This document shows positions 2,527-40,137 of a DNA stretch of 64,000 nucleotides, one piece after another (within the stretch, counting starts at the first letter, position 1; every line of letters starts with the position of its first letter). Under the pieces are notes generated by a model. It was not told where the DNA came from. It was given only the letters and a program-made list of their open reading frames with translations, and ran no database searches. Source of the DNA: Escherichia phage vB_Eco_F31; the sequence record OP870147.1; one strand, written 5' to 3'. The position numbers were made by a program, and so were the translations under genes.

Positions 2527-3627
2527 TTACGCTGTGAAGATTTTATCCCACATCGCAACAACTGCATCTCGATTATACTTCTTCCATACTGCTTCAGCAC
2601 GTTTAACTCGAGCTTCGTATGTGTCAGTGAATTCTAATACAGCTTTTGTGTAAAGCGCAACTACTTCTTTCTTAGGAGTAGAGGAATCAATTTCTACACG
2701 CACAGTATCTGGGTCGTATTCGAATGTCGCATGAGGATAATCCTTAAAAACTAACTGGATTACAGGGACACCTTTAGAGATGGCTTCAATAGAACTATTC
2801 TCTACCGTACCTGTGTCAGGACACGTATTAATAAGTGCTTTAGCTGTTTTAAGACATTCCATAATTTCACTGTGTGGAGCATCAATAATAACAGGATATT
2901 TAGCTGGTGGTGCCCATTTGCTTGGACAATAACCAATACCATTTTCGCCTAGTGCTTTAATCGCTTCAAGAGCAACATCAGTACGACGCATTTTAGTGTC
3001 ATAACGTTGTGCACTAATAATCAGATCAGTCGCCGGAAGAACTTCAGGTTTCTCATTCAAACAAATAACCGGATAATCTTCGGCTTCAAACAACGGATTT
3101 GCTCGCCAATAATCATAATCGATTTTGTCAGTCAGACCTGAAGTCATATAACAATATTTGCGTTCAAATTCACGGAAGGCTTTAGTAGGAGCATAACTCT
3201 TACCGCCATTCTTATGAATTTGAATAGTTTGGTCCCAAATTTGAACAATACCACGAGATACCGGTTCAAATGGTGTTGCCATAAAATTCTTGTGAACTTT
3301 AGAGAGACCTGCGTCTTTAATTGCCTGAACGGTTAGTTTAGTCGGTTCCATAGTAACAACAAAATCATATTCATGGATGCCGGCTAGTTCAACAATCTTA
3401 CGAGCCATAGTATAACTCATACCTAGACTGAATTTAGTCAGATGACCAACAGGATGATGATTAACTTTCCAATCACCAAATGTGTCATTATCAAAACCGA
3501 TATAATCAATATCGGCACCAATAGAAACTAAATATTTCAACACATTTAAATGTACTGCTTCAAGACCACCTTGTACACGTTCAGGATTAAATGGGACTGC
3601 ACGAGATGGGATAAACATAACTTTCAT
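2527..3627 (-). CDS. GT-B fold glycosyltransferase, candidate hmC pentosyl(arabinosyl)transferase
   Basis: 366-aa ORF; N-terminal MKVMFIPS...GGLE and C-terminal G-x-VENSSIEAISKGVPVI resemble the GT1/GT4 E-x7-E donor-binding region; lies between rIIA and topoisomerase where T4 has no such gene. Confidence 0.55.
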   Translation of the reverse strand: MKVMFIPSRAVPFNPERVQGGLEAVHLNVLKYLVSIGADIDYIGFDNDTFGDWKVNHHPVGHLTKFSLGMSYTMARKIVELAGIHEYDFVVTMEPTKLTVQAIKDAGLSKVHKNFMATPFEPVSRGIVQIWDQTIQIHKNGGKSYAPTKAFREFERKYCYMTSGLTDKIDYDYWRANPLFEAEDYPVICLNEKPEVLPATDLIISAQRYDTKMRRTDVALEAIKALGENGIGYCPSKWAPPAKYPVIIDAPHSEIMECLKTAKALINTCPDTGTVENSSIEAISKGVPVIQLVFKDYPHATFEYDPDTVRVEIDSSTPKKEVVALYTKAVLEFTDTYEARVKRAEAVWKKYNRDAVVAMWDKIFTA

Positions 3628-3640
3628 AATTAAGCCTTAT

Positions 3641-3671
3641 TAAAATTAAAATGAAGCTCCCGAAGGAGCTT
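3641..3671 (-). terminator. hairpin terminator with UUCG loop downstream of gene 39
   Basis: AAGCTCC-TTCG-GGAGCTT on the minus strand followed by T-rich tract; overlaps the gene 39 stop. Confidence 0.5.
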
Positions 3672-5487
3672 AGGACATCCATTCTTTACGAAGTTCTGAA
3701 TCATCACCCATCAACATTTCAAAGAGTTCTTTCCAATTTTCAGGAAGTTTAACTACGTCGTACACAGGGTTCTGAATCATTTCACGATATTCTGACTTTT
3801 CAAGGGAGCCTAATCCCTTGATGTATCGAATACTATGCTTAGGCAGTGTATCTTTAACTTCTTCATACTCAGCTACAGTATAAAACCATTTTTGAGTTTT
3901 GCCAATTTGTGCAATAATTACAGGCGTTTTAACAAAGCGAATACGTCCTTGTTCAAACAATTCAGGCCAATTACTAAAGAAAGCAAGCAAAGCCGGATAG
4001 ATACTTCCAAGACCGTCATGATCGGCATCGGTCATAATTGCAATATTACGATAGTTCGTATTCTCTGCCTTTTCACCAAGAATAAGACCTGTGATAGCAC
4101 AGATATCAAAGAGCTCTTTGTTCTTCATCATATCAGCATATGACATACCCCAGCTATTCATCACCTTACCACGTAATGGGAATCCGCCGTGTAGTTCACG
4201 GTCACGAACATCAATGAGATAACCAATTGCCGAATCACCTTCTGTTAAGAACAATGTCGTATCTGCATCTTTACCACATTGGTTAGCTTTAATATGCTTA
4301 TGAACCTTAGCTTTAGTTGCCTTTTTAGCTGCTTTAGTTTCTGCAGCCTTTTCTGCTGCCAATTTACGAGCTAATGCTGCTTCAACAATAGGCATAATCA
4401 AGGCTTCGTTTTTAAGAAGTGCCTGAGCAATTTTCTTAGCATCCAATTGGATATGATTACGAATATCACCATACGTTGACGTTAAACGTTCTTTAGTCTG
4501 AGAATCAAAACGCATGTTGCTCATGTCTCTAATAAACATCAACATTGTGAGACATTCTTTAACACGAGCTTTAGTGACTTCAATACCCTTATATTTCTTT
4601 TTAATACCCGGCAAAAGATGTTCGCAGATATCATCCATTACACATTCAACATGATGACCACCATTTTTAGTATGGATATTATTCACATAAGTTAAATGAC
4701 GGAAGCCATCTGGTGATGTTGTGAATGCTATAGAGACTTTATCATTTTCTTGAATGATGTTATCTTCACCAAATTGTTTAGCAAATCGTTTAAAATTACC
4801 ATCAACCTTTTTACCATTAAATGTGAACTTGATATCAGGATAAACGACTGCCAATGTTTGAAGTCTGTCTAAAGTAATATCTAAATAAATTTGAGATAAA
4901 TTATGCTCTTCAAATGAAGAGAAATCAGGAGTGAAGATTACTTTAGTGCCTTTACCTTTAGATTTCTTAGAAGACCATGATTTGTTTTCCATTCCGTTTG
5001 AACAGTTAACAGTGATTTCATTTTCGCCATCTGACGTTATGCCTGTAAACAACGTAGAGAAGATATTAGTTAAACTACTCCCGACGCCGTTCATACCACC
5101 AGTCTTGCGTTCAGAGTCATCACCAAAGTTACCACCGGCCTTTGGAATAGTCCAGGCTGCTACAGGCCCAGGAATTTGTTCACCCGTTTGGTCGGTAACT
5201 AAACCTTGAGGAATACCACGTCCGTTATCTTCCACCGAAACTTGATTATTTTTAATTTGCACATCAATTTTATTTGCAAACTTAAATGATGTACGAATAG
5301 CTTCATCAACCGAGTTGTCAATAATCTCATCGATTAATTTAACCAGACCAGGAACATATTCAACTTGTTGATATTTACCAAACAAAAAACGCTCATGTGC
5401 TTCTTTAGCAGAAGAACCAATATACATACCACTACGTTTCTTAATATGTTCTACATCTGACAATACCTTAATTTCATTTTTAATCAT
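3670..5487 (-). CDS. 39: DNA topoisomerase II large subunit (GyrB-like ATPase + Toprim), single uninterrupted ORF
   Basis: 605-aa ORF with GHKL ATPase and Toprim-like motifs (GGxxGxG-like NGVGSS, DADxDG = TDADHDG); equals T4 gp39+gp60 fused as in several T4 relatives. Confidence 0.85.
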   Translation of the reverse strand: MIKNEIKVLSDVEHIKKRSGMYIGSSAKEAHERFLFGKYQQVEYVPGLVKLIDEIIDNSVDEAIRTSFKFANKIDVQIKNNQVSVEDNGRGIPQGLVTDQTGEQIPGPVAAWTIPKAGGNFGDDSERKTGGMNGVGSSLTNIFSTLFTGITSDGENEITVNCSNGMENKSWSSKKSKGKGTKVIFTPDFSSFEEHNLSQIYLDITLDRLQTLAVVYPDIKFTFNGKKVDGNFKRFAKQFGEDNIIQENDKVSIAFTTSPDGFRHLTYVNNIHTKNGGHHVECVMDDICEHLLPGIKKKYKGIEVTKARVKECLTMLMFIRDMSNMRFDSQTKERLTSTYGDIRNHIQLDAKKIAQALLKNEALIMPIVEAALARKLAAEKAAETKAAKKATKAKVHKHIKANQCGKDADTTLFLTEGDSAIGYLIDVRDRELHGGFPLRGKVMNSWGMSYADMMKNKELFDICAITGLILGEKAENTNYRNIAIMTDADHDGLGSIYPALLAFFSNWPELFEQGRIRFVKTPVIIAQIGKTQKWFYTVAEYEEVKDTLPKHSIRYIKGLGSLEKSEYREMIQNPVYDVVKLPENWKELFEMLMGDDSELRKEWMS

Positions 5488-5499
5488 GTTGTCTCCTCG

Positions 5500-5535
5500 T
5501 TATGAAGGTATTCTATCATCCGAAATCTAAAGCAA
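5500..5535 (-). promoter_or_regulatory. MotA-box middle-type promoter upstream of gene 39
   Basis: Minus strand TTGCTTTAG - 11 nt - TAGAAT directly after the terminator hairpin. Confidence 0.45.
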
Positions 5536-5551
5536 AAAGGGCCGAAGCCCT
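5526..5551 (-). terminator. hairpin terminator with UUCG loop
   Basis: AAGGGC-TTCG-GCCCTT followed by TTTTTGC on the minus strand; directly followed by a MotA-box-like promoter for gene 39. Confidence 0.55.
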
Positions 5552-5976
5552 TATTTAAATTTAATTTTCTGAAGTGTATCAATTGCAGCCAAACGCCCTT
5601 GTTCACTTTTAACTGTAATGACCACATCGCCTGATACGATCACCGAACCATCAACAAATTCTATAGAGCCTTTTTTGAAATCGACAGCTGTATCTGGTTC
5701 CTGAACTTCTTCAAAGAATTTAAATTCTGCACCATAAAGCAGAATATCACCTTGCATACTATGAATAGTTCGGCCATAATCGCCTACGGCTTCTACAGCA
5801 ATAACCGAAACACCGTAACCAATCATCTCTTCCACAATAAAATCTTTGGACAATAAAGTAGTATGCAGATTAGTATTAAGACGTTTACCAGTCGTATTAA
5901 GAATTCTCAAGAAATTATCTTCCTGTCCTTTGATAATACGATATTTCTTACCAACTTCAAAACCTTTAAAAGCCAT
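5551..5976 (-). CDS. hypothetical protein (goF position by synteny)
   Basis: 141-aa ORF downstream of gene 39; same size as T4 goF, not otherwise verified. Confidence 0.45.
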   Translation of the reverse strand: MAFKGFEVGKKYRIIKGQEDNFLRILNTTGKRLNTNLHTTLLSKDFIVEEMIGYGVSVIAVEAVGDYGRTIHSMQGDILLYGAEFKFFEEVQEPDTAVDFKKGSIEFVDGSVIVSGDVVITVKSEQGRLAAIDTLQKIKFK

Positions 5977-38382: not shown

Positions 38383-38617
38383 CCTTGATACATGCTTCAG
38401 CCATTTTAAGAATAGAACCAGGAGTATCGTTGTCCATTATATTAAAGCTAAATTCAATAGCCCAGTCAGTGCAGACATGAACTGCTTTAACTTCATTGCC
38501 TTCAACGCGTAATGGCTCAATCCAATACTTGATAGTGTTCTCGAATCCATCGTCATCTTTAACGTCCATTTCAACTTCAAGCCTGAGACCAGCATTGTTA
38601 AATTCATCTAAAGTCAT
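38360..38617 (-). CDS. small hypothetical protein
   Basis: 85-aa acidic ORF. Confidence 0.4.
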   Translation of the reverse strand: MTLDEFNNAGLRLEVEMDVKDDDGFENTIKYWIEPLRVEGNEVKAVHVCTDWAIEFSFNIMDNDTPGSILKMAEACIKDAYNDED

Positions 38618-39633
38618 TGTGTTGCCTCAATATAAAGTTCGTTGGAATATTTGACCAGCGCTTCTCTGTCTTCGTCTGAGATATCTGGAATAGCGTCAAT
38701 ATATTCTTTAATGATATCTTGAAGTGATTTAATCTCGATTTCCTGGTCGTCATCAGATTCAACACTGTTATCAACTTTAGAAACCATACGAAGAGAGTGA
38801 ACTACTTTTTCAAGTTCAGATTCAAACTTAGTCAACTCAGAATCGATTTCTGATACTATAACACGTACGGCTAGATTAGTATAATCAGAATAATTGATTT
38901 TGCCTTTAAACGGATAAGTGATTCGTCGATGCCATGTTGTTTCATTAGGAATAAATTCCATACGTTCAACATCAGTGTCAAATACCCAGAATCCTCGAGG
39001 GTCGTTCTCATCGCCTGCAGTAAGGGTCCATGGTGTCCCAATATATTTGACGTTAGCAGCTTCAGAGATTGTGTGGAAGTGGCCGGACCAGACTTGTTTA
39101 TAAGTCTTTAAGAAATCAGGTTCAAGCCCATGAGACTTCATTCCTTTATAGAAATAAAAGCCGTTCAGTTCCCAGTGCCCAACACAATACGCTGCAGAAG
39201 AAGTCTTGATGTGCTCTAAGATTTCACCTGTATTTTCTTCACACATCCATGGAACGATATCAATCAGACATCCGTCAAAATCTACAGTAGTCGGATGCTC
39301 GTAAATAGTAAAGTTTTCAAATTGAGTTAACAATTCAGAAACAGTGTTAGGTGTTATTGTATTCTTAAACGCCATGTCATGGTTTCCTATCGTGACATGA
39401 ACGTGAATACCTGCTTTAGAAATCATATCAACGATTTCACGATTGAATTCCATTGTACGATGTGTTATTGCTTTACGAACGTCGAACCAATCACCGTACT
39501 GAATCCAAGTTTTAATCCCGTGTTTCTTAGAGTATTCAATTGCTTGTTGAATACCATCACGTTGAATATCTTGAACCCATGGGTCGTCTTGTTTGACTCC
39601 GATATGGAAGTCGCCTAAGTGCAAAATTTTCAT
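38614..39633 (-). CDS. 47: recombination endonuclease subunit gp47 (Mre11/SbcD-like phosphoesterase)
   Basis: 339 aa; N-terminal MKILHLGDFHIG metallophosphatase motif. Confidence 0.85.
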   Translation of the reverse strand: MKILHLGDFHIGVKQDDPWVQDIQRDGIQQAIEYSKKHGIKTWIQYGDWFDVRKAITHRTMEFNREIVDMISKAGIHVHVTIGNHDMAFKNTITPNTVSELLTQFENFTIYEHPTTVDFDGCLIDIVPWMCEENTGEILEHIKTSSAAYCVGHWELNGFYFYKGMKSHGLEPDFLKTYKQVWSGHFHTISEAANVKYIGTPWTLTAGDENDPRGFWVFDTDVERMEFIPNETTWHRRITYPFKGKINYSDYTNLAVRVIVSEIDSELTKFESELEKVVHSLRMVSKVDNSVESDDDQEIEIKSLQDIIKEYIDAIPDISDEDREALVKYSNELYIEATQ

Positions 39634-39649
39634 ATTATTTCCTCATTAG

Positions 39650-39682
39650 TTAATTCATTCTATCATCCGTTTATAAAGCAAA
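39650..39682 (-). promoter_or_regulatory. MotA-box middle-type promoter upstream of gene 47
   Basis: Minus strand TTGCTTTAT - 11 nt - TAGAAT; shares CGGATGATAGAAT with the gene 39 promoter. Confidence 0.45.
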
Positions 39683-39704
39683 AAAGGAACTCCGAAGAGT
39701 TCCT
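39675..39704 (-). terminator. rho-independent terminator with UUCG loop upstream of gene 47
   Basis: AGGAACTC-TTCG-GAGTTCCT followed by TTTTTTGCTTT on the minus strand. Confidence 0.65.
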
Positions 39705-39876
39705 ATCCACATAGTACACCGTACAGAGGCTCATTTGAACTTTTAAATCGAATGGGCTTGTACGTAATAGTTCCTTCGGCTTTAGCTTTATCATAAGACT
39801 CTTTAAAACGTCTCATTCTTTCTGCTTTGCCTTTACGGATTTTATCGAAATTTTCAGAAGTCGGGATGTTCGTCAT
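39703..39876 (-). CDS. small basic hypothetical protein
   Basis: 57-aa ORF by manual translation with GAGGTG RBS; lies where T4 has alpha-gt. Confidence 0.3.
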   Translation of the reverse strand: MTNIPTSENFDKIRKGKAERMRRFKESYDKAKAEGTITYKPIRFKSSNEPLYGVLCG

Positions 39877-39915: not shown

Positions 39916-40137
39916 TCATCGTTTCCACCATTTCTTAACTTGAAATGAATCGACCCACACGAGTTGTTTTGGGTCTGCCTTTACAATAGGCGGACAAATT
40001 TCTGTAATAGAACCGTCGTGATATTCCTTTTCAGAAATTTTAACACAAAGAGGACCTCCCAATTTAAGGGTGAACCCTGCGTTCAGCTTCAGACGTTTAA
40101 ACTTTGTTTGAACTAGCGCCATTAATGATGTCCTCAA
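39916..40137 (-). CDS. small hypothetical protein
   Basis: 73-aa ORF. Confidence 0.35.
   Translation of the reverse strand: MRTSLMALVQTKFKRLKLNAGFTLKLGGPLCVKISEKEYHDGSITEICPPIVKADPKQLVWVDSFQVKKWWKR

What the first reader, a model, noticed from the sequence alone, without database searches (positions are those of the whole stretch)
39650..39704. Recurring terminator-plus-MotA-box promoter cassette upstream of gene 39 and gene 47
At both 5500-5551 and 39650-39704 a UUCG-loop hairpin terminator is followed immediately by TTGCTTTA(G/T) and, 11 nt later, TAGAAT. The shared core CGGATGATAGAAT is identical at the two sites. This looks like a duplicated regulatory module that insulates upstream transcripts and restarts MotA-dependent middle transcription.
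Basis: partly seen in the sequence, partly recalled or inferred. Interest (0 to 1): 0.45.

Follow-up and report, generated by a model that had tools for sequence, protein, structure and literature searches.

The report
Known terminator plus MotA promoter cassettes
Two short intergenic stretches of this RB69-like T4-type phage each pack a stop-transcription hairpin against a phage-specific "middle" promoter in front of DNA-metabolism genes 39 and 47; the pattern is real, but it matches mapped T4 promoters and published RB69 predictions, so it is ordinary.

Summary
At 5552-5510 and 39704-39657 a perfect C(UUCG)G hairpin starts inside the upstream stop codon. A T-run follows and runs straight into TTTTGCTTTA (a consensus MotA box), then TGA-TAGAAT (extended -10), a predicted start, a Shine-Dalgarno site and the ATG of gene 39 (60plus39) or gene 47. 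The box-to-hexamer spacing is 12 nt at gene 39 and 11 nt at gene 47, not the same at both.

The window is a Mosigvirus about 99% identical to RB69. Nolan et al. 2006 already list both promoters (Pm:5538, Pm:40046) and both terminators for RB69. In T4 the positional orthologues P39, PmobB and P47 are experimentally identified middle promoters. They are the only 3 of the 30 promoters listed for the first 50 kb with a hairpin abutting the MotA box. Cassettes at the same two loci occur in eight or more genera, and their stems change in a compensatory way. Comeau et al. 2014 named this composite type PmSL.

A duplicated module is not supported. The stems are unrelated and the identity is confined to consensus elements. 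GATGATARAAT also occurs in a third middle promoter, and RB69 itself shares only 12 of the 13 bases. The verdict is a compact terminator/attenuator plus MotA/AsiA-dependent promoter: already known, low interest.

The parts
39685..39704 (-). Site 2 hairpin AGGAACUC-UUCG-GAGUUCCU: 8 bp with a C(UUCG)G tetraloop. It starts inside the TAG stop codon of a-gt.2 (39705-39703).
   Evidence: -11.2 kcal/mol. TransTerm terminator '47<--a-gt.2' in RB69. Annotated as a terminator in OL960576.
39674..39684 (-). Site 2 T-run that merges into the MotA box (TTTTTGCTTTA). The terminator U-tract doubles as the A/T-rich 5' part of the wwwTGCTTtA consensus.
   Evidence: Consensus from PMC2988021.
39657..39665 (-). 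Site 2 extended -10: TGA + TAGAAT. The hexamer lies 11 nt after TGCTTTA.
   Evidence: RB69 Pm:40046, score 22, '1 bp del'.
39650..39650 (-). Site 2 predicted transcription start: an A, 7 nt after the -10 hexamer. Inferred by analogy with T4 P39 spacing.
   Evidence: Inference (in T4 P39 the start at 5349 is 7 nt after TATAAT).
38614..39644 (-). Shine-Dalgarno GAGGA (39644-39640) and gene 47 (339 aa, SbcD-like recombination nuclease subunit; ATG at 39633).
39703..39876 (-). Upstream gene a-gt.2, whose transcript the site 2 hairpin would end.
5537..5552 (-). Site 1 hairpin AAGGGC-UUCG-GCCCUU: 6 bp with a C(UUCG)G tetraloop. It starts inside the TAA stop codon (5553-5551) of the RB69 ORF005c homologue.
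   Evidence: -8.8 kcal/mol. TransTerm terminator '60plus39<--RB69ORF005c'.
5528..5538 (-). Site 1 T-run that merges into the MotA box (TTTTTGCTTTA).
5510..5518 (-). Site 1 extended -10: TGA + TAGAAT. The hexamer lies 12 nt after TGCTTTA.
   Evidence: RB69 Pm:5538, score 16.8.
5503..5503 (-). Site 1 predicted transcription start: an A, 7 nt after the -10 hexamer. Inferred.
   Evidence: Inference from T4 P39.
3670..5498 (-). Shine-Dalgarno GAGGAG (5498-5493) and gene 39 (fused 60plus39 topoisomerase II large subunit, 605 aa; ATG at 5487).
5551..5976 (-). Upstream ORF (RB69 ORF005c homologue), whose transcript the site 1 hairpin would end.

Best explanation
Each site is a compact transcription-unit boundary of the T4 type, 63 nt long before gene 39 and 69 nt long before gene 47. 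It has two working parts.

1. Terminator or attenuator. RNA made from upstream early promoters folds into a very stable C(UUCG)G hairpin that begins within the upstream stop codon. A U-tract follows, so the structure acts as an intrinsic terminator or attenuator and leaves a 3'-protecting hairpin on the upstream message.

2. Middle promoter. On the DNA, the same T-run is the A/T-rich 5' part of a consensus MotA box (TTTTGCTTTA, centred near -30). The box sits 11-12 bp upstream of an extended -10 element (TGA-TAGAAT), and there is no usable -35 hexamer. After infection, AsiA remodels sigma-70 region 4 and MotA binds the box (sigma appropriation). Host RNA polymerase then starts about 7 nt after the -10, at about 5503 and about 39650. 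The resulting leaders are 16-17 nt long and carry a strong Shine-Dalgarno site.

The expected result is that genes 39 and 47-46 are uncoupled from early read-through and switched on in the middle period.

What is shown: the sequence anatomy, its enrichment, its conservation and stem covariation, its positional orthology to mapped T4 promoters, and the presence of motA and asiA in RB69.

What is inferred: that termination and MotA-dependent initiation actually occur in this phage, and where exactly transcription starts.
For: - Sequence anatomy.
- Motif enrichment.
- Hairpins pass the terminator scan and fold at -8.8 and -11.2 kcal/mol.
- The window is about 99% identical to RB69-type Mosigvirus genomes.
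- RB69 Pm:5538 and Pm:40046, plus terminators at 5535-5546 and 40044-40061, are in the supplements of PMC1524935.
- The middle-promoter consensus, and the statement that about half of T4 middle promoters carry TGn, come from PMC2988021.
- That review's Table 1 lists T4 P39 (start 5349), P47 (36576) and PmobB (38682) as identified middle promoters.
- In T4 these three are the only ones of the 30 promoters listed for the first 50 kb with a C(UUCG)G hairpin ending at -31 to -33 (sequences).
- The cassette before gene 39 is conserved in Tequatro-, Mosig-, Gapriver-, Dhaka-, Marfa-, Kagamiyama-, Winkler- and Kanagawavirus. The cassette before 47/47.1 is conserved in Mosig-, Gapriver-, Dhaka-, Kanagawa- and Tequatrovirus.
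- Stems stay perfectly paired although they differ in sequence: GGGC/GCCC, GGCC/GGCC, GGAGCC/GGCUCC, GGAACUC/GAGUUCC, GGAAGC/GCUUCC and GGGAC/GUCCC.
- RB69 encodes motA and asiA.
Against: - No transcript 5' or 3' ends are available for this phage or for RB69. Two literature searches found none.
- motA and asiA lie outside the 64-kb window, so their presence in this exact genome is inferred from relatives.
- The T4 orthologues have weaker U-tracts (UUUAGCUUU and UAUAUUGCUUU). In T4 the hairpins may therefore attenuate or stabilise RNA rather than terminate efficiently, and termination efficiency here is unknown.
- With a TGn extended -10, some MotA-independent initiation by unmodified sigma-70 holoenzyme is possible.
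Confidence: 0.85

Rival explanations
1. A recently duplicated or mobile regulatory module. On this view one cassette was copied to the other locus, which is the first reader's 'duplicated module'.
For: - The two sites share the 13-mer CGGATGATAGAAT and an 11-mer TTTTTGCTTTA in the same order.
- The pair is the outlier among the 66 promoter pairs.
Against: - The stems are unrelated in sequence and length, and the spacers differ in length and in their first 4-5 nt.
- Everything shared is a consensus element.
- GATGATARAAT is also in a third middle promoter at 142-132.
- RB69 shares only 12 of the 13 bases.
- Each cassette has its own orthologue at its own locus in many genera.
Confidence: 0.05
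2. Concerted evolution. On this view the gene 39 and gene 47 cassettes are old and separate but occasionally exchange short tracts by ectopic gene conversion. That would explain why they share lineage-specific details.
For: - In Mosigvirus the pair shares CGGATGATAGAAT.
- In T4 the same pair shares a different 13-mer, CCTTTAGCTTTAT, which includes the unusual A in aGCTT. Only 3 of the 30 listed T4 promoters have that A.
- Recombination between similar stem-loop/promoter cassettes is documented in T4-type phages (PMC2839356).
Against: - The shared tracts are only 11-13 nt long and largely consensus-driven.
- RB69 has G at P39 but A at P47 in the -10 hexamer, so the two copies are not kept identical.
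- In Dhaka- and Gaprivervirus the two promoters do not share a spacer.
- A purine-rich stretch just upstream of the -10 is general among T4 middle promoters.
Confidence: 0.1
3. The hairpins are mainly RNA-stability or processing elements, protecting the 3' ends of upstream messages or acting as barriers. On this view they do not terminate transcription, and most polymerases read through.
For: - The T4 orthologues keep the hairpin but have poor U-tracts.
- Stem covariation shows selection on the structure, not on termination as such.
- Middle genes in T4 are also expressed by extension of early transcripts (PMC2988021).
Against: - In this phage both hairpins are followed by 5-6 consecutive U residues and satisfy terminator rules.
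- TransTerm gave both a score of 100 in RB69.
- This reading is not exclusive of the main explanation.
Confidence: 0.2
4. The promoters are MotA-independent sigma-70 promoters of the extended -10 class, and the GCTTTA match is incidental.
For: Both sites carry TGn plus a good -10 hexamer. Extended -10 promoters need no -35 element (PMC2988021).
Against: - The MotA box is a full 10/10 consensus match at the correct distance at both sites.
- The GCTT core is kept in the gene 39 cassettes of all eight genera compared, and in the Mosig-, Dhaka-, Gapriver- and Tequatrovirus cassettes before 47/47.1. The Kanagawavirus versions read TGCTAT.
- The T4 orthologues are listed among identified middle promoters.
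Confidence: 0.07

Closest known systems
T4 middle promoter P39 (start 5349; Hinton 2010 review, Table 1, PMC2988021)
   Same: - Same locus, directly upstream of gene 39.
- Same order of parts: stop codon, C(UUCG)G hairpin, T-run, GCTTTA box, 12-nt spacer, -10, SD, ATG.
- The spacer also contains CGGA.
   Different: - T4 has aGCTTTA instead of TGCTTTA and TATAAT instead of TAGAAT.
- It has no TGn and a shorter U-tract.
- Its stem is GGCC/GGCC.
- The upstream gene is 39.1 rather than the ORF005c homologue.
T4 middle promoters PmobB (P-alpha-gt.1, start 38682) and P47 (start 36576)
   Same: - PmobB follows a-gt.2 with the same architecture. It is clearly homologous to the left part of site 2, from the end of a-gt.2 through the hairpin to TTGCTTTATAAA.
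- P47 has a hairpin identical to the site 1 hairpin (AAGGGCTTCGGCCCTT) abutting a MotA box, and it drives gene 47.
   Different: - T4 has mobB and a-gt (and 47.1) inserted between the two cassettes, whereas this phage has a single cassette driving 47 directly.
- Homology to T4 stops right after the MotA box, at about 39670.
- Homology of the right part of site 2 to T4 P47 cannot be shown beyond consensus elements.
RB69 predicted middle promoters Pm:5538 and Pm:40046, with TransTerm terminators 5535-5546 and 40044-40061 (Nolan et al. 2006, PMC1524935, Additional files 4 and 6)
   Same: - These are the same elements in a genome about 99% identical to the window.
- Promoter and terminator coordinates abut or overlap by 3-4 nt, as they do here.
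- The one-base-shorter spacing at P47 is noted as '1 bp del'.
   Different: - RB69 P47 has TAAAAT rather than TAGAAT.
- The paper lists the elements separately and does not discuss them as a composite.
PeSL / PmSL composite cassettes (Arbiol et al. 2010, PMC2839356; Comeau et al. 2014, PMC4122927)
   Same: - A stem-loop terminator sits immediately upstream of a promoter, SD and ATG in a short intergenic region.
- PmSLs are the variant with a TGCTT Mot-box and a -10 element.
- Both cassettes here sit at boundaries where gene content differs between related phages.
   Different: - PeSLs are many-copy repeats conserved over about 100 bp in hyperplastic regions, and they flank ORFans.
- Here there are only two abutting copies in 64 kb, with unrelated stems, in front of conserved core genes.
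- PmSLs were described in vibriophage nt-1, not in the T-even group.
C(UUCG)G tetraloop hairpins of T4 intercistronic regions (Tuerk et al. 1988, PNAS; cited from my own knowledge, not retrieved here)
   Same: Both hairpins close with C-UUCG-G. The window has 8 hairpins of this kind with stems of at least 6 bp on the transcribed strand.
   Different: None of substance. These are ordinary members of that class.

Membership tests
T4-type MotA/AsiA-dependent middle promoter | MotA box (a/t)(a/t)(a/t)TGCTTtA centred near -30 | tested here: met
   TTTTGCTTTA at both sites. Consensus quoted from PMC2988021.
T4-type MotA/AsiA-dependent middle promoter | Sigma-70 -10 element TAtaaT 12 +/- 1 bp downstream of the box | tested here: met
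   TAGAAT lies 12 nt (site 1) and 11 nt (site 2) after TGCTTTA. Both are preceded by TGn.
T4-type MotA/AsiA-dependent middle promoter | No functional -35 hexamer | tested here: met
   Read directly: hexamers 16-18 nt upstream of TAGAAT match TTGACA at no more than 2 of 6 positions. Neither site appears among the rows shown by the sigma-70 scans, each of which leaves 16-17 weaker hits unlisted.
T4-type MotA/AsiA-dependent middle promoter | The phage encodes MotA and AsiA | tested here: inconclusive
   Neither gene lies within the 64-kb window. RB69, about 99% identical across the regions compared, has asiA (159866-160138) and motA (162001-162633).
T4-type MotA/AsiA-dependent middle promoter | Positional orthology to experimentally identified T4 middle promoters | tested here: met
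   P39, PmobB and P47.
T4-type MotA/AsiA-dependent middle promoter | MotA/AsiA-dependent transcription start about 7 nt after the -10 | not testable with these tools
   Requires transcript mapping or in vitro transcription.
Intrinsic (Rho-independent) terminator | Stable GC-rich stem-loop directly followed by a U-tract, co-directional with and just after a stop codon | tested here: met
   Stems of 6 and 8 bp (4 G-C pairs each) fold at -8.8 and -11.2 kcal/mol. A run of 5-6 T follows, counting the T(s) that pair in the stem. The stop codons overlap the stems.
Intrinsic (Rho-independent) terminator | Structure conserved through compensatory changes in relatives | tested here: met
   At least six different stem sequences, all perfectly paired, at the two loci across genera. 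This was tabulated by hand, because the MAFFT alignments were not in register for the stems.
Intrinsic (Rho-independent) terminator | RNA 3' ends at the U-tract in vivo or in vitro | not testable with these tools
   Requires Term-seq or a termination assay.
PeSL/PmSL composite regulatory cassette | Stem-loop immediately upstream of a promoter (Mot-box type for PmSL), SD and start codon in one intergenic region | tested here: met
   Definition from PMC4122927.
PeSL/PmSL composite regulatory cassette | Multi-copy repeat family with sequence conservation over roughly 100 bp | tested here: not met
   Only 2 of the 12 minus-strand MotA-box candidates have an abutting hairpin. Identity between the two is limited to 11 nt and 13 nt, and the stems are unrelated.
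PeSL/PmSL composite regulatory cassette | Located at indel or replacement boundaries between related phages | tested here: met
   - Site 2: Tequatroviruses carry mobB/a-gt/47.1 where this phage has one cassette, and homology breaks just after the MotA box.
- Site 1: homology with other genera starts 4-10 nt before the hairpin, and the upstream gene differs (39.1, ORF005c or hoc).
PeSL/PmSL composite regulatory cassette | Recombination between copies (for example mini-circles) | not testable with these tools
   Requires inverse PCR or long-read data from infected cells.

The most novel reading that the evidence does not exclude
The hairpin/MotA-box cassettes of the T-even group are more than passive regulatory signals: they also act as recombination joints. 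Two observations fit this reading.
- The mobB/a-gt module of T4 is bracketed by two such cassettes. RB69-, JS98- and SP18-type phages have one cassette at that place, whose homology to T4 breaks just after the MotA box.
- The gene 39 and gene 47 cassettes share lineage-specific tracts in both T4 (CCTTTAGCTTTAT) and Mosigvirus (CGGATGATAGAAT). Occasional ectopic gene conversion between them would produce that.

If true, this would extend the PeSL/PmSL modular-shuffling model to middle promoters in front of core replication and recombination genes.
Probability: 0.15. Interest if true: 0.4.

Novelty: already known. Interest (0 to 1): 0.15.

Why it matters
It matters little beyond correct annotation.
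- It confirms that this RB69-like phage keeps the T4 scheme in which a terminator hairpin and a MotA-dependent promoter share a 60-70 nt intergenic region. The terminator's T-run serves as the A/T-rich part of the MotA box.
- It gives precise coordinates for the two transcription-unit boundaries, before gene 39 and before the 47-46 operon.
- The one slightly wider point is that these cassettes coincide with breakpoints of gene-content differences between T-even genera. This fits the published PeSL/PmSL model and could be tested across the hundreds of genomes now available.

Tried and rejected
- Rfam scan of the whole window at gathering thresholds: no family matched.
- Literature searches for genome-wide 5'-end or terminator maps of T4 or RB69: nothing usable found.
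- The 2003 T4 genome review (PMC150520) is not held.
- MAFFT alignments of the cassettes from different genera put indels inside the stems. I therefore did not run the count of structure pairs and tabulated the stems by hand, folding each one.
- I tested whether the right half of site 2 (spacer to 5'UTR) derives from T4 P47. Local alignment gives only a 15-nt, consensus-dominated match (score 10), against 21 for JS98. A 'chimeric cassette' cannot therefore be demonstrated; only the left-half homology to T4 PmobB is solid (score 37).
- I tried to test co-variation of the two -10 hexamers across many genomes with an IMG/VR pattern scan. Only 2 contigs matched, too few to use.
- The uvsX-proximal MotA-box candidate at 24298-24274 was checked as a possible third cassette. 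It has no abutting hairpin in this window.
- Chance was rejected as an explanation. Recent duplication was rejected for the reasons given under the rival explanations.

Full report
**What is in the sequence**

The feature lies on the minus strand, which is the coding strand for this whole region.

Site 1, read 5'->3':
- the TAA stop (5553-5551) of a 141-aa ORF;
- hairpin AAGGGC-TTCG-GCCCTT (5552-5537);
- a T-run running into TGCTTTA (5534-5528);
- the 12-nt spacer GATTTCGGATGA;
- TAGAAT (5515-5510);
- GAGGAG (5498-5493);
- the ATG (5487) of a 605-aa ORF.

Site 2, read 5'->3':
- the TAG stop (39705-39703) of a 57-aa ORF;
- hairpin AGGAACTC-TTCG-GAGTTCCT (39704-39685);
- TTTTT, then TGCTTTA (39680-39674);
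- the 11-nt spacer TAAACGGATGA;
- TAGAAT (39662-39657);
- GAGGA (39644-39640);
- the ATG (39633) of a 339-aa ORF.

The 13-mer CGGATGATAGAAT is shared exactly and occurs nowhere else in the window. The distance from the box to the -10 hexamer differs by one base between the sites. The intergenic regions are only 63 and 69 nt long.

**Is it more than chance?**

- The composite pattern (TTCG, 4-10 nt, TTTGCTTTA, 10-13 nt, TANNNT) occurs twice, against 0.00 in shuffles.
- The MotA-box/-10 pattern occurs 18 times against 3.4 +/- 1.8, with 12 matches on the minus strand.
- Of those 12, only these two have a GC-rich hairpin within 12 nt upstream.
- Both hairpins pass the terminator scan. They fold at -8.8 and -11.2 kcal/mol and dominate the local fold.
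- A repeated 13-mer is not unusual in itself. There are 315 repeated 13-mer pairs in the window, against about 69 in shuffles.
- Anchored at the -10 hexamer, however, this pair shares a run of 13 identical bases, against 7 for the next best of 66 pairs.

**What genome this is**

The window is about 99% identical to RB69-type phages of the genus Mosigvirus, and its coordinates nearly coincide with genome coordinates. In RB69 the downstream genes are 39 (the fused '60plus39' topoisomerase II large subunit) and 47 (the SbcD-like nuclease subunit, followed by 46.2, 46.1 and 46). The upstream genes are ORF005c and a-gt.2. RB69 encodes both asiA and motA. They lie outside this window.

**Already in the literature**

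- Nolan et al. 2006 (PMC1524935) searched RB69 with the T4 middle-promoter consensus and with TransTerm. Their Additional file 4 lists Pm:5538 (score 16.8) and Pm:40046 (score 22, '1 bp del').
- Their Additional file 6 lists terminators at 5535-5546 ('60plus39<--RB69ORF005c') and 40044-40061 ('47<--a-gt.2'), both with score 100.
- These are the two sites studied here, and the promoter and terminator coordinates overlap by a few bases.
- The review by Hinton (PMC2988021) gives the consensus: (a/t)(a/t)(a/t)TGCTTtA placed 12 +/- 1 bp from TAtaaT. [quoted passage not shown]
- Its Table 1 of identified T4 middle promoters includes P39 (start 5349), P47 (36576) and PmobB/P-alpha-gt.1 (38682).

**Comparison with T4**

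I extracted the 75 nt upstream of each of the 30 start sites that Table 1 places in the first 50 kb of T4.
- Exactly three have a C(UUCG)G hairpin ending at -31 to -33, abutting the MotA box: P39, P47 and PmobB.
- These are the positional orthologues of the two sites here.
- T4 P39 reads AAAGGCC-TTCG-GGCCTTT-AGCTTTA-N12-TATAAT, with the start 7 nt after the hexamer. By analogy I place the starts here at about 5503 and about 39650.

**Conservation and covariation**

Before gene 39, the same order of hairpin, T-run, GCTTT, spacer, -10, SD and ATG is present in:
- T4;
- SP18 (Gaprivervirus);
- dhabil (Dhakavirus);
- a Klebsiella Marfavirus;
- EcS1 (Kagamiyamavirus);
- LC53 (Winklervirus);
- PEi26 (Kanagawavirus).

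Only the Citrobacter phage Moon lacks the hairpin.

Before 47 or 47.1 the cassette is present in RB69, ST0, SP18, JS98, ZX14 and PEi20, and it occurs twice in T4 and AR1.

The stems differ in sequence but always pair perfectly. The versions seen are:
- GGGC/GCCC;
- GGCC/GGCC;
- GGAGCC/GGCUCC;
- GGAACUC/GAGUUCC;
- GGAAGC/GCUUCC;
- GGAGC/GCUCC;
- GGGAC/GUCCC.

The loops are UUCG, UUAG, UACG or CUAGU. This is good comparative evidence that the structure itself is under selection.

**Is it a duplicated module?**

The evidence is against a recent duplication.
- The two stems share nothing beyond being G+C-rich.
- What is shared is what the functional consensus predicts: the C(UUCG)G loop, of which there are eight examples with stems of at least 6 bp on this strand; a T-run plus GCTTTA; TGn; and the -10 hexamer.
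- The module GATGATARAAT also occurs in a third predicted middle promoter at 142-132, which is RB69 Pm:156, the rIIB-proximal promoter. Beyond that module, the pair-specific identity shrinks to about 3 bases.
- RB69 has TAGAAT at P39 but TAAAAT at P47.
- A purine-rich stretch just upstream of the -10 hexamer is common among T4 middle promoters.
- Each cassette has its own orthologue at its own locus in other genera, so both predate the divergence of those genera.

One oddity remains. In T4 the same two promoters share a different 13-mer, CCTTTAGCTTTAT, which includes the unusual aGCTT. Occasional gene conversion between the two cassettes therefore cannot be excluded, and I give it about 10%.

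**Boundaries of gene-content variation**

- For site 2, homology with Tequatroviruses runs from a-gt.2 through the hairpin and the MotA box. For T4 it ends just after GCTTTATAAA, at about 39670.
- There T4 carries mobB and a-gt, followed by a second hairpin/MotA cassette (P47) and then 47.1. AR1 and N2 carry a-gt without mobB.
- JS98 and SP18, like this phage, have a single cassette, though theirs drives 47.1-47.
- The left half of site 2 aligns to T4 PmobB with score 37, against 10 for T4 P47. The right half aligns best to JS98 (21), and to either T4 cassette only at consensus level (10).
- For site 1, homology with other genera begins 4-10 nt before the hairpin. The upstream gene varies between 39.1, ORF005c-like, hoc and others.
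- This matches the published picture of stem-loop/promoter cassettes (PeSLs) as joints for modular exchange (PMC2839356). It also matches the Mot-box variant that Comeau et al. 2014 named PmSL (PMC4122927).
- The cassettes here do not form a multi-copy repeat family, however.

**Mechanism**

The best-supported reading has three steps.
1. Transcripts from upstream early promoters end or are attenuated at the hairpin plus U-tract, which also leaves a protective 3' hairpin.
2. After AsiA and MotA accumulate, sigma-appropriated RNA polymerase initiates at the abutting middle promoter, where the T-run is the www part of the MotA box.
3. The short leader, with its strong SD, drives translation of gp39 or gp47.

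The anatomy, the conservation and the orthology to mapped promoters are shown. Actual termination and MotA-dependent initiation in this phage are inferred.

The main uncertainties are two. Termination efficiency is unknown, since the T4 orthologues have poor U-tracts. The TGn element may also allow some MotA-independent activity.

**Verdict**

The elements are already known, so interest is low.

Noticed in passing
window 33070-33040 (-): Just after the regA-like ORF and before gene 43 lies the hairpin AATGGGAC-TTCG-GTCCCATT, followed 5 nt later by TATAAT. In T4 the mapped middle promoter P43 (start 29933) has AGGGGC-TTCG-GCCCCT over its -30 region. The hairpin's (G/A)CTT(CG) loop edge therefore sits where the MotA-box core GCTT should be. 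A C(UUCG)G hairpin may itself supply the Mot-box core. The region is also where the gp43 translational operator is expected.
   Followed up: partly
window 45047-44978 (-): A third arrangement of terminator-like hairpin then middle promoter, with a 15-nt gap: GAACGGCCCCGGATGCAGGGTCGTTC, TTTTCGTTACGGGTT, then GTTTGCATAAA-N-TG-TTATAAT. It is the orthologue of T4 P55.8 (start 42805), which has a deviant MotA box.
   Followed up: partly
window 20628-20570 (-) and 15008-14941 (-): C(UUCG)G hairpins (9-bp stems) followed at once by T4-early-type promoters: GTTTACA-N17-TGA-TATGAT, and TTTACA-N17-TAAGAT with TG. These are stem-loop plus early-promoter composites of the PeSL type.
   Followed up: no
window, whole (-) strand: Eight TTCG-loop hairpins with stems of at least 6 bp and C...G closure lie on the minus strand (54962, 39704, 33070, 22382, 20628, 15008, 5552, 3671). 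The plus strand has one weak one. This is a strong strand bias towards the transcribed strand.
   Followed up: no
window 142-132 (-): GATGATAAAAT, the same extended -10 module as at the two sites, occurs in the rIIB-proximal predicted middle promoter (RB69 Pm:156). There are 3 occurrences of GATGATARAAT in the window against 0.32 expected, all in predicted middle promoters.
   Followed up: partly
L021 (T4) 5380-5355 and 36610-36585 (-): T4 P39 and T4 P47 share the 13-mer CCTTTAGCTTTAT, which includes the unusual aGCTT box variant. The internal P-alpha-gt also has CTTTAGCT. This is a different shared tract from the one shared by the same two promoters in Mosigvirus.
   Followed up: partly
window 5496-5493 (-): The Shine-Dalgarno region of gene 39 (GAGGAG) contains GGAG, the motif cut by the T4 RegB endoribonuclease in some early mRNAs (from my own knowledge). 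T4 gene 39 (GAGGAT) and gene 47 here (GAGGAA) lack it.
   Followed up: no
window 39634-39702, compared with L005/L004: This phage lacks a-gt, mobB and 47.1 between a-gt.2 and 47. That fits RB69-type phages using arabinosylation rather than glucosylation of hydroxymethylcytosine. RB69 annotates an arabinose 5-phosphate isomerase and, in CDS notes, similarity to a mannose-1-P guanyltransferase at 28-30.6 kb, a region this window also covers.
   Followed up: no
L005 (T4) 3281-3300 (-): The mapped T4 PmobB start (38682) is only 3 nt upstream of the mobB ATG (38679). The mobB message from this promoter would therefore be almost leaderless, with no Shine-Dalgarno site.
   Followed up: no
window, whole: There are 315 pairs of exactly repeated 13-mers on one strand, against about 69 in mononucleotide shuffles. 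This is more short repeated words than composition explains. The control did not preserve dinucleotides.
   Followed up: no
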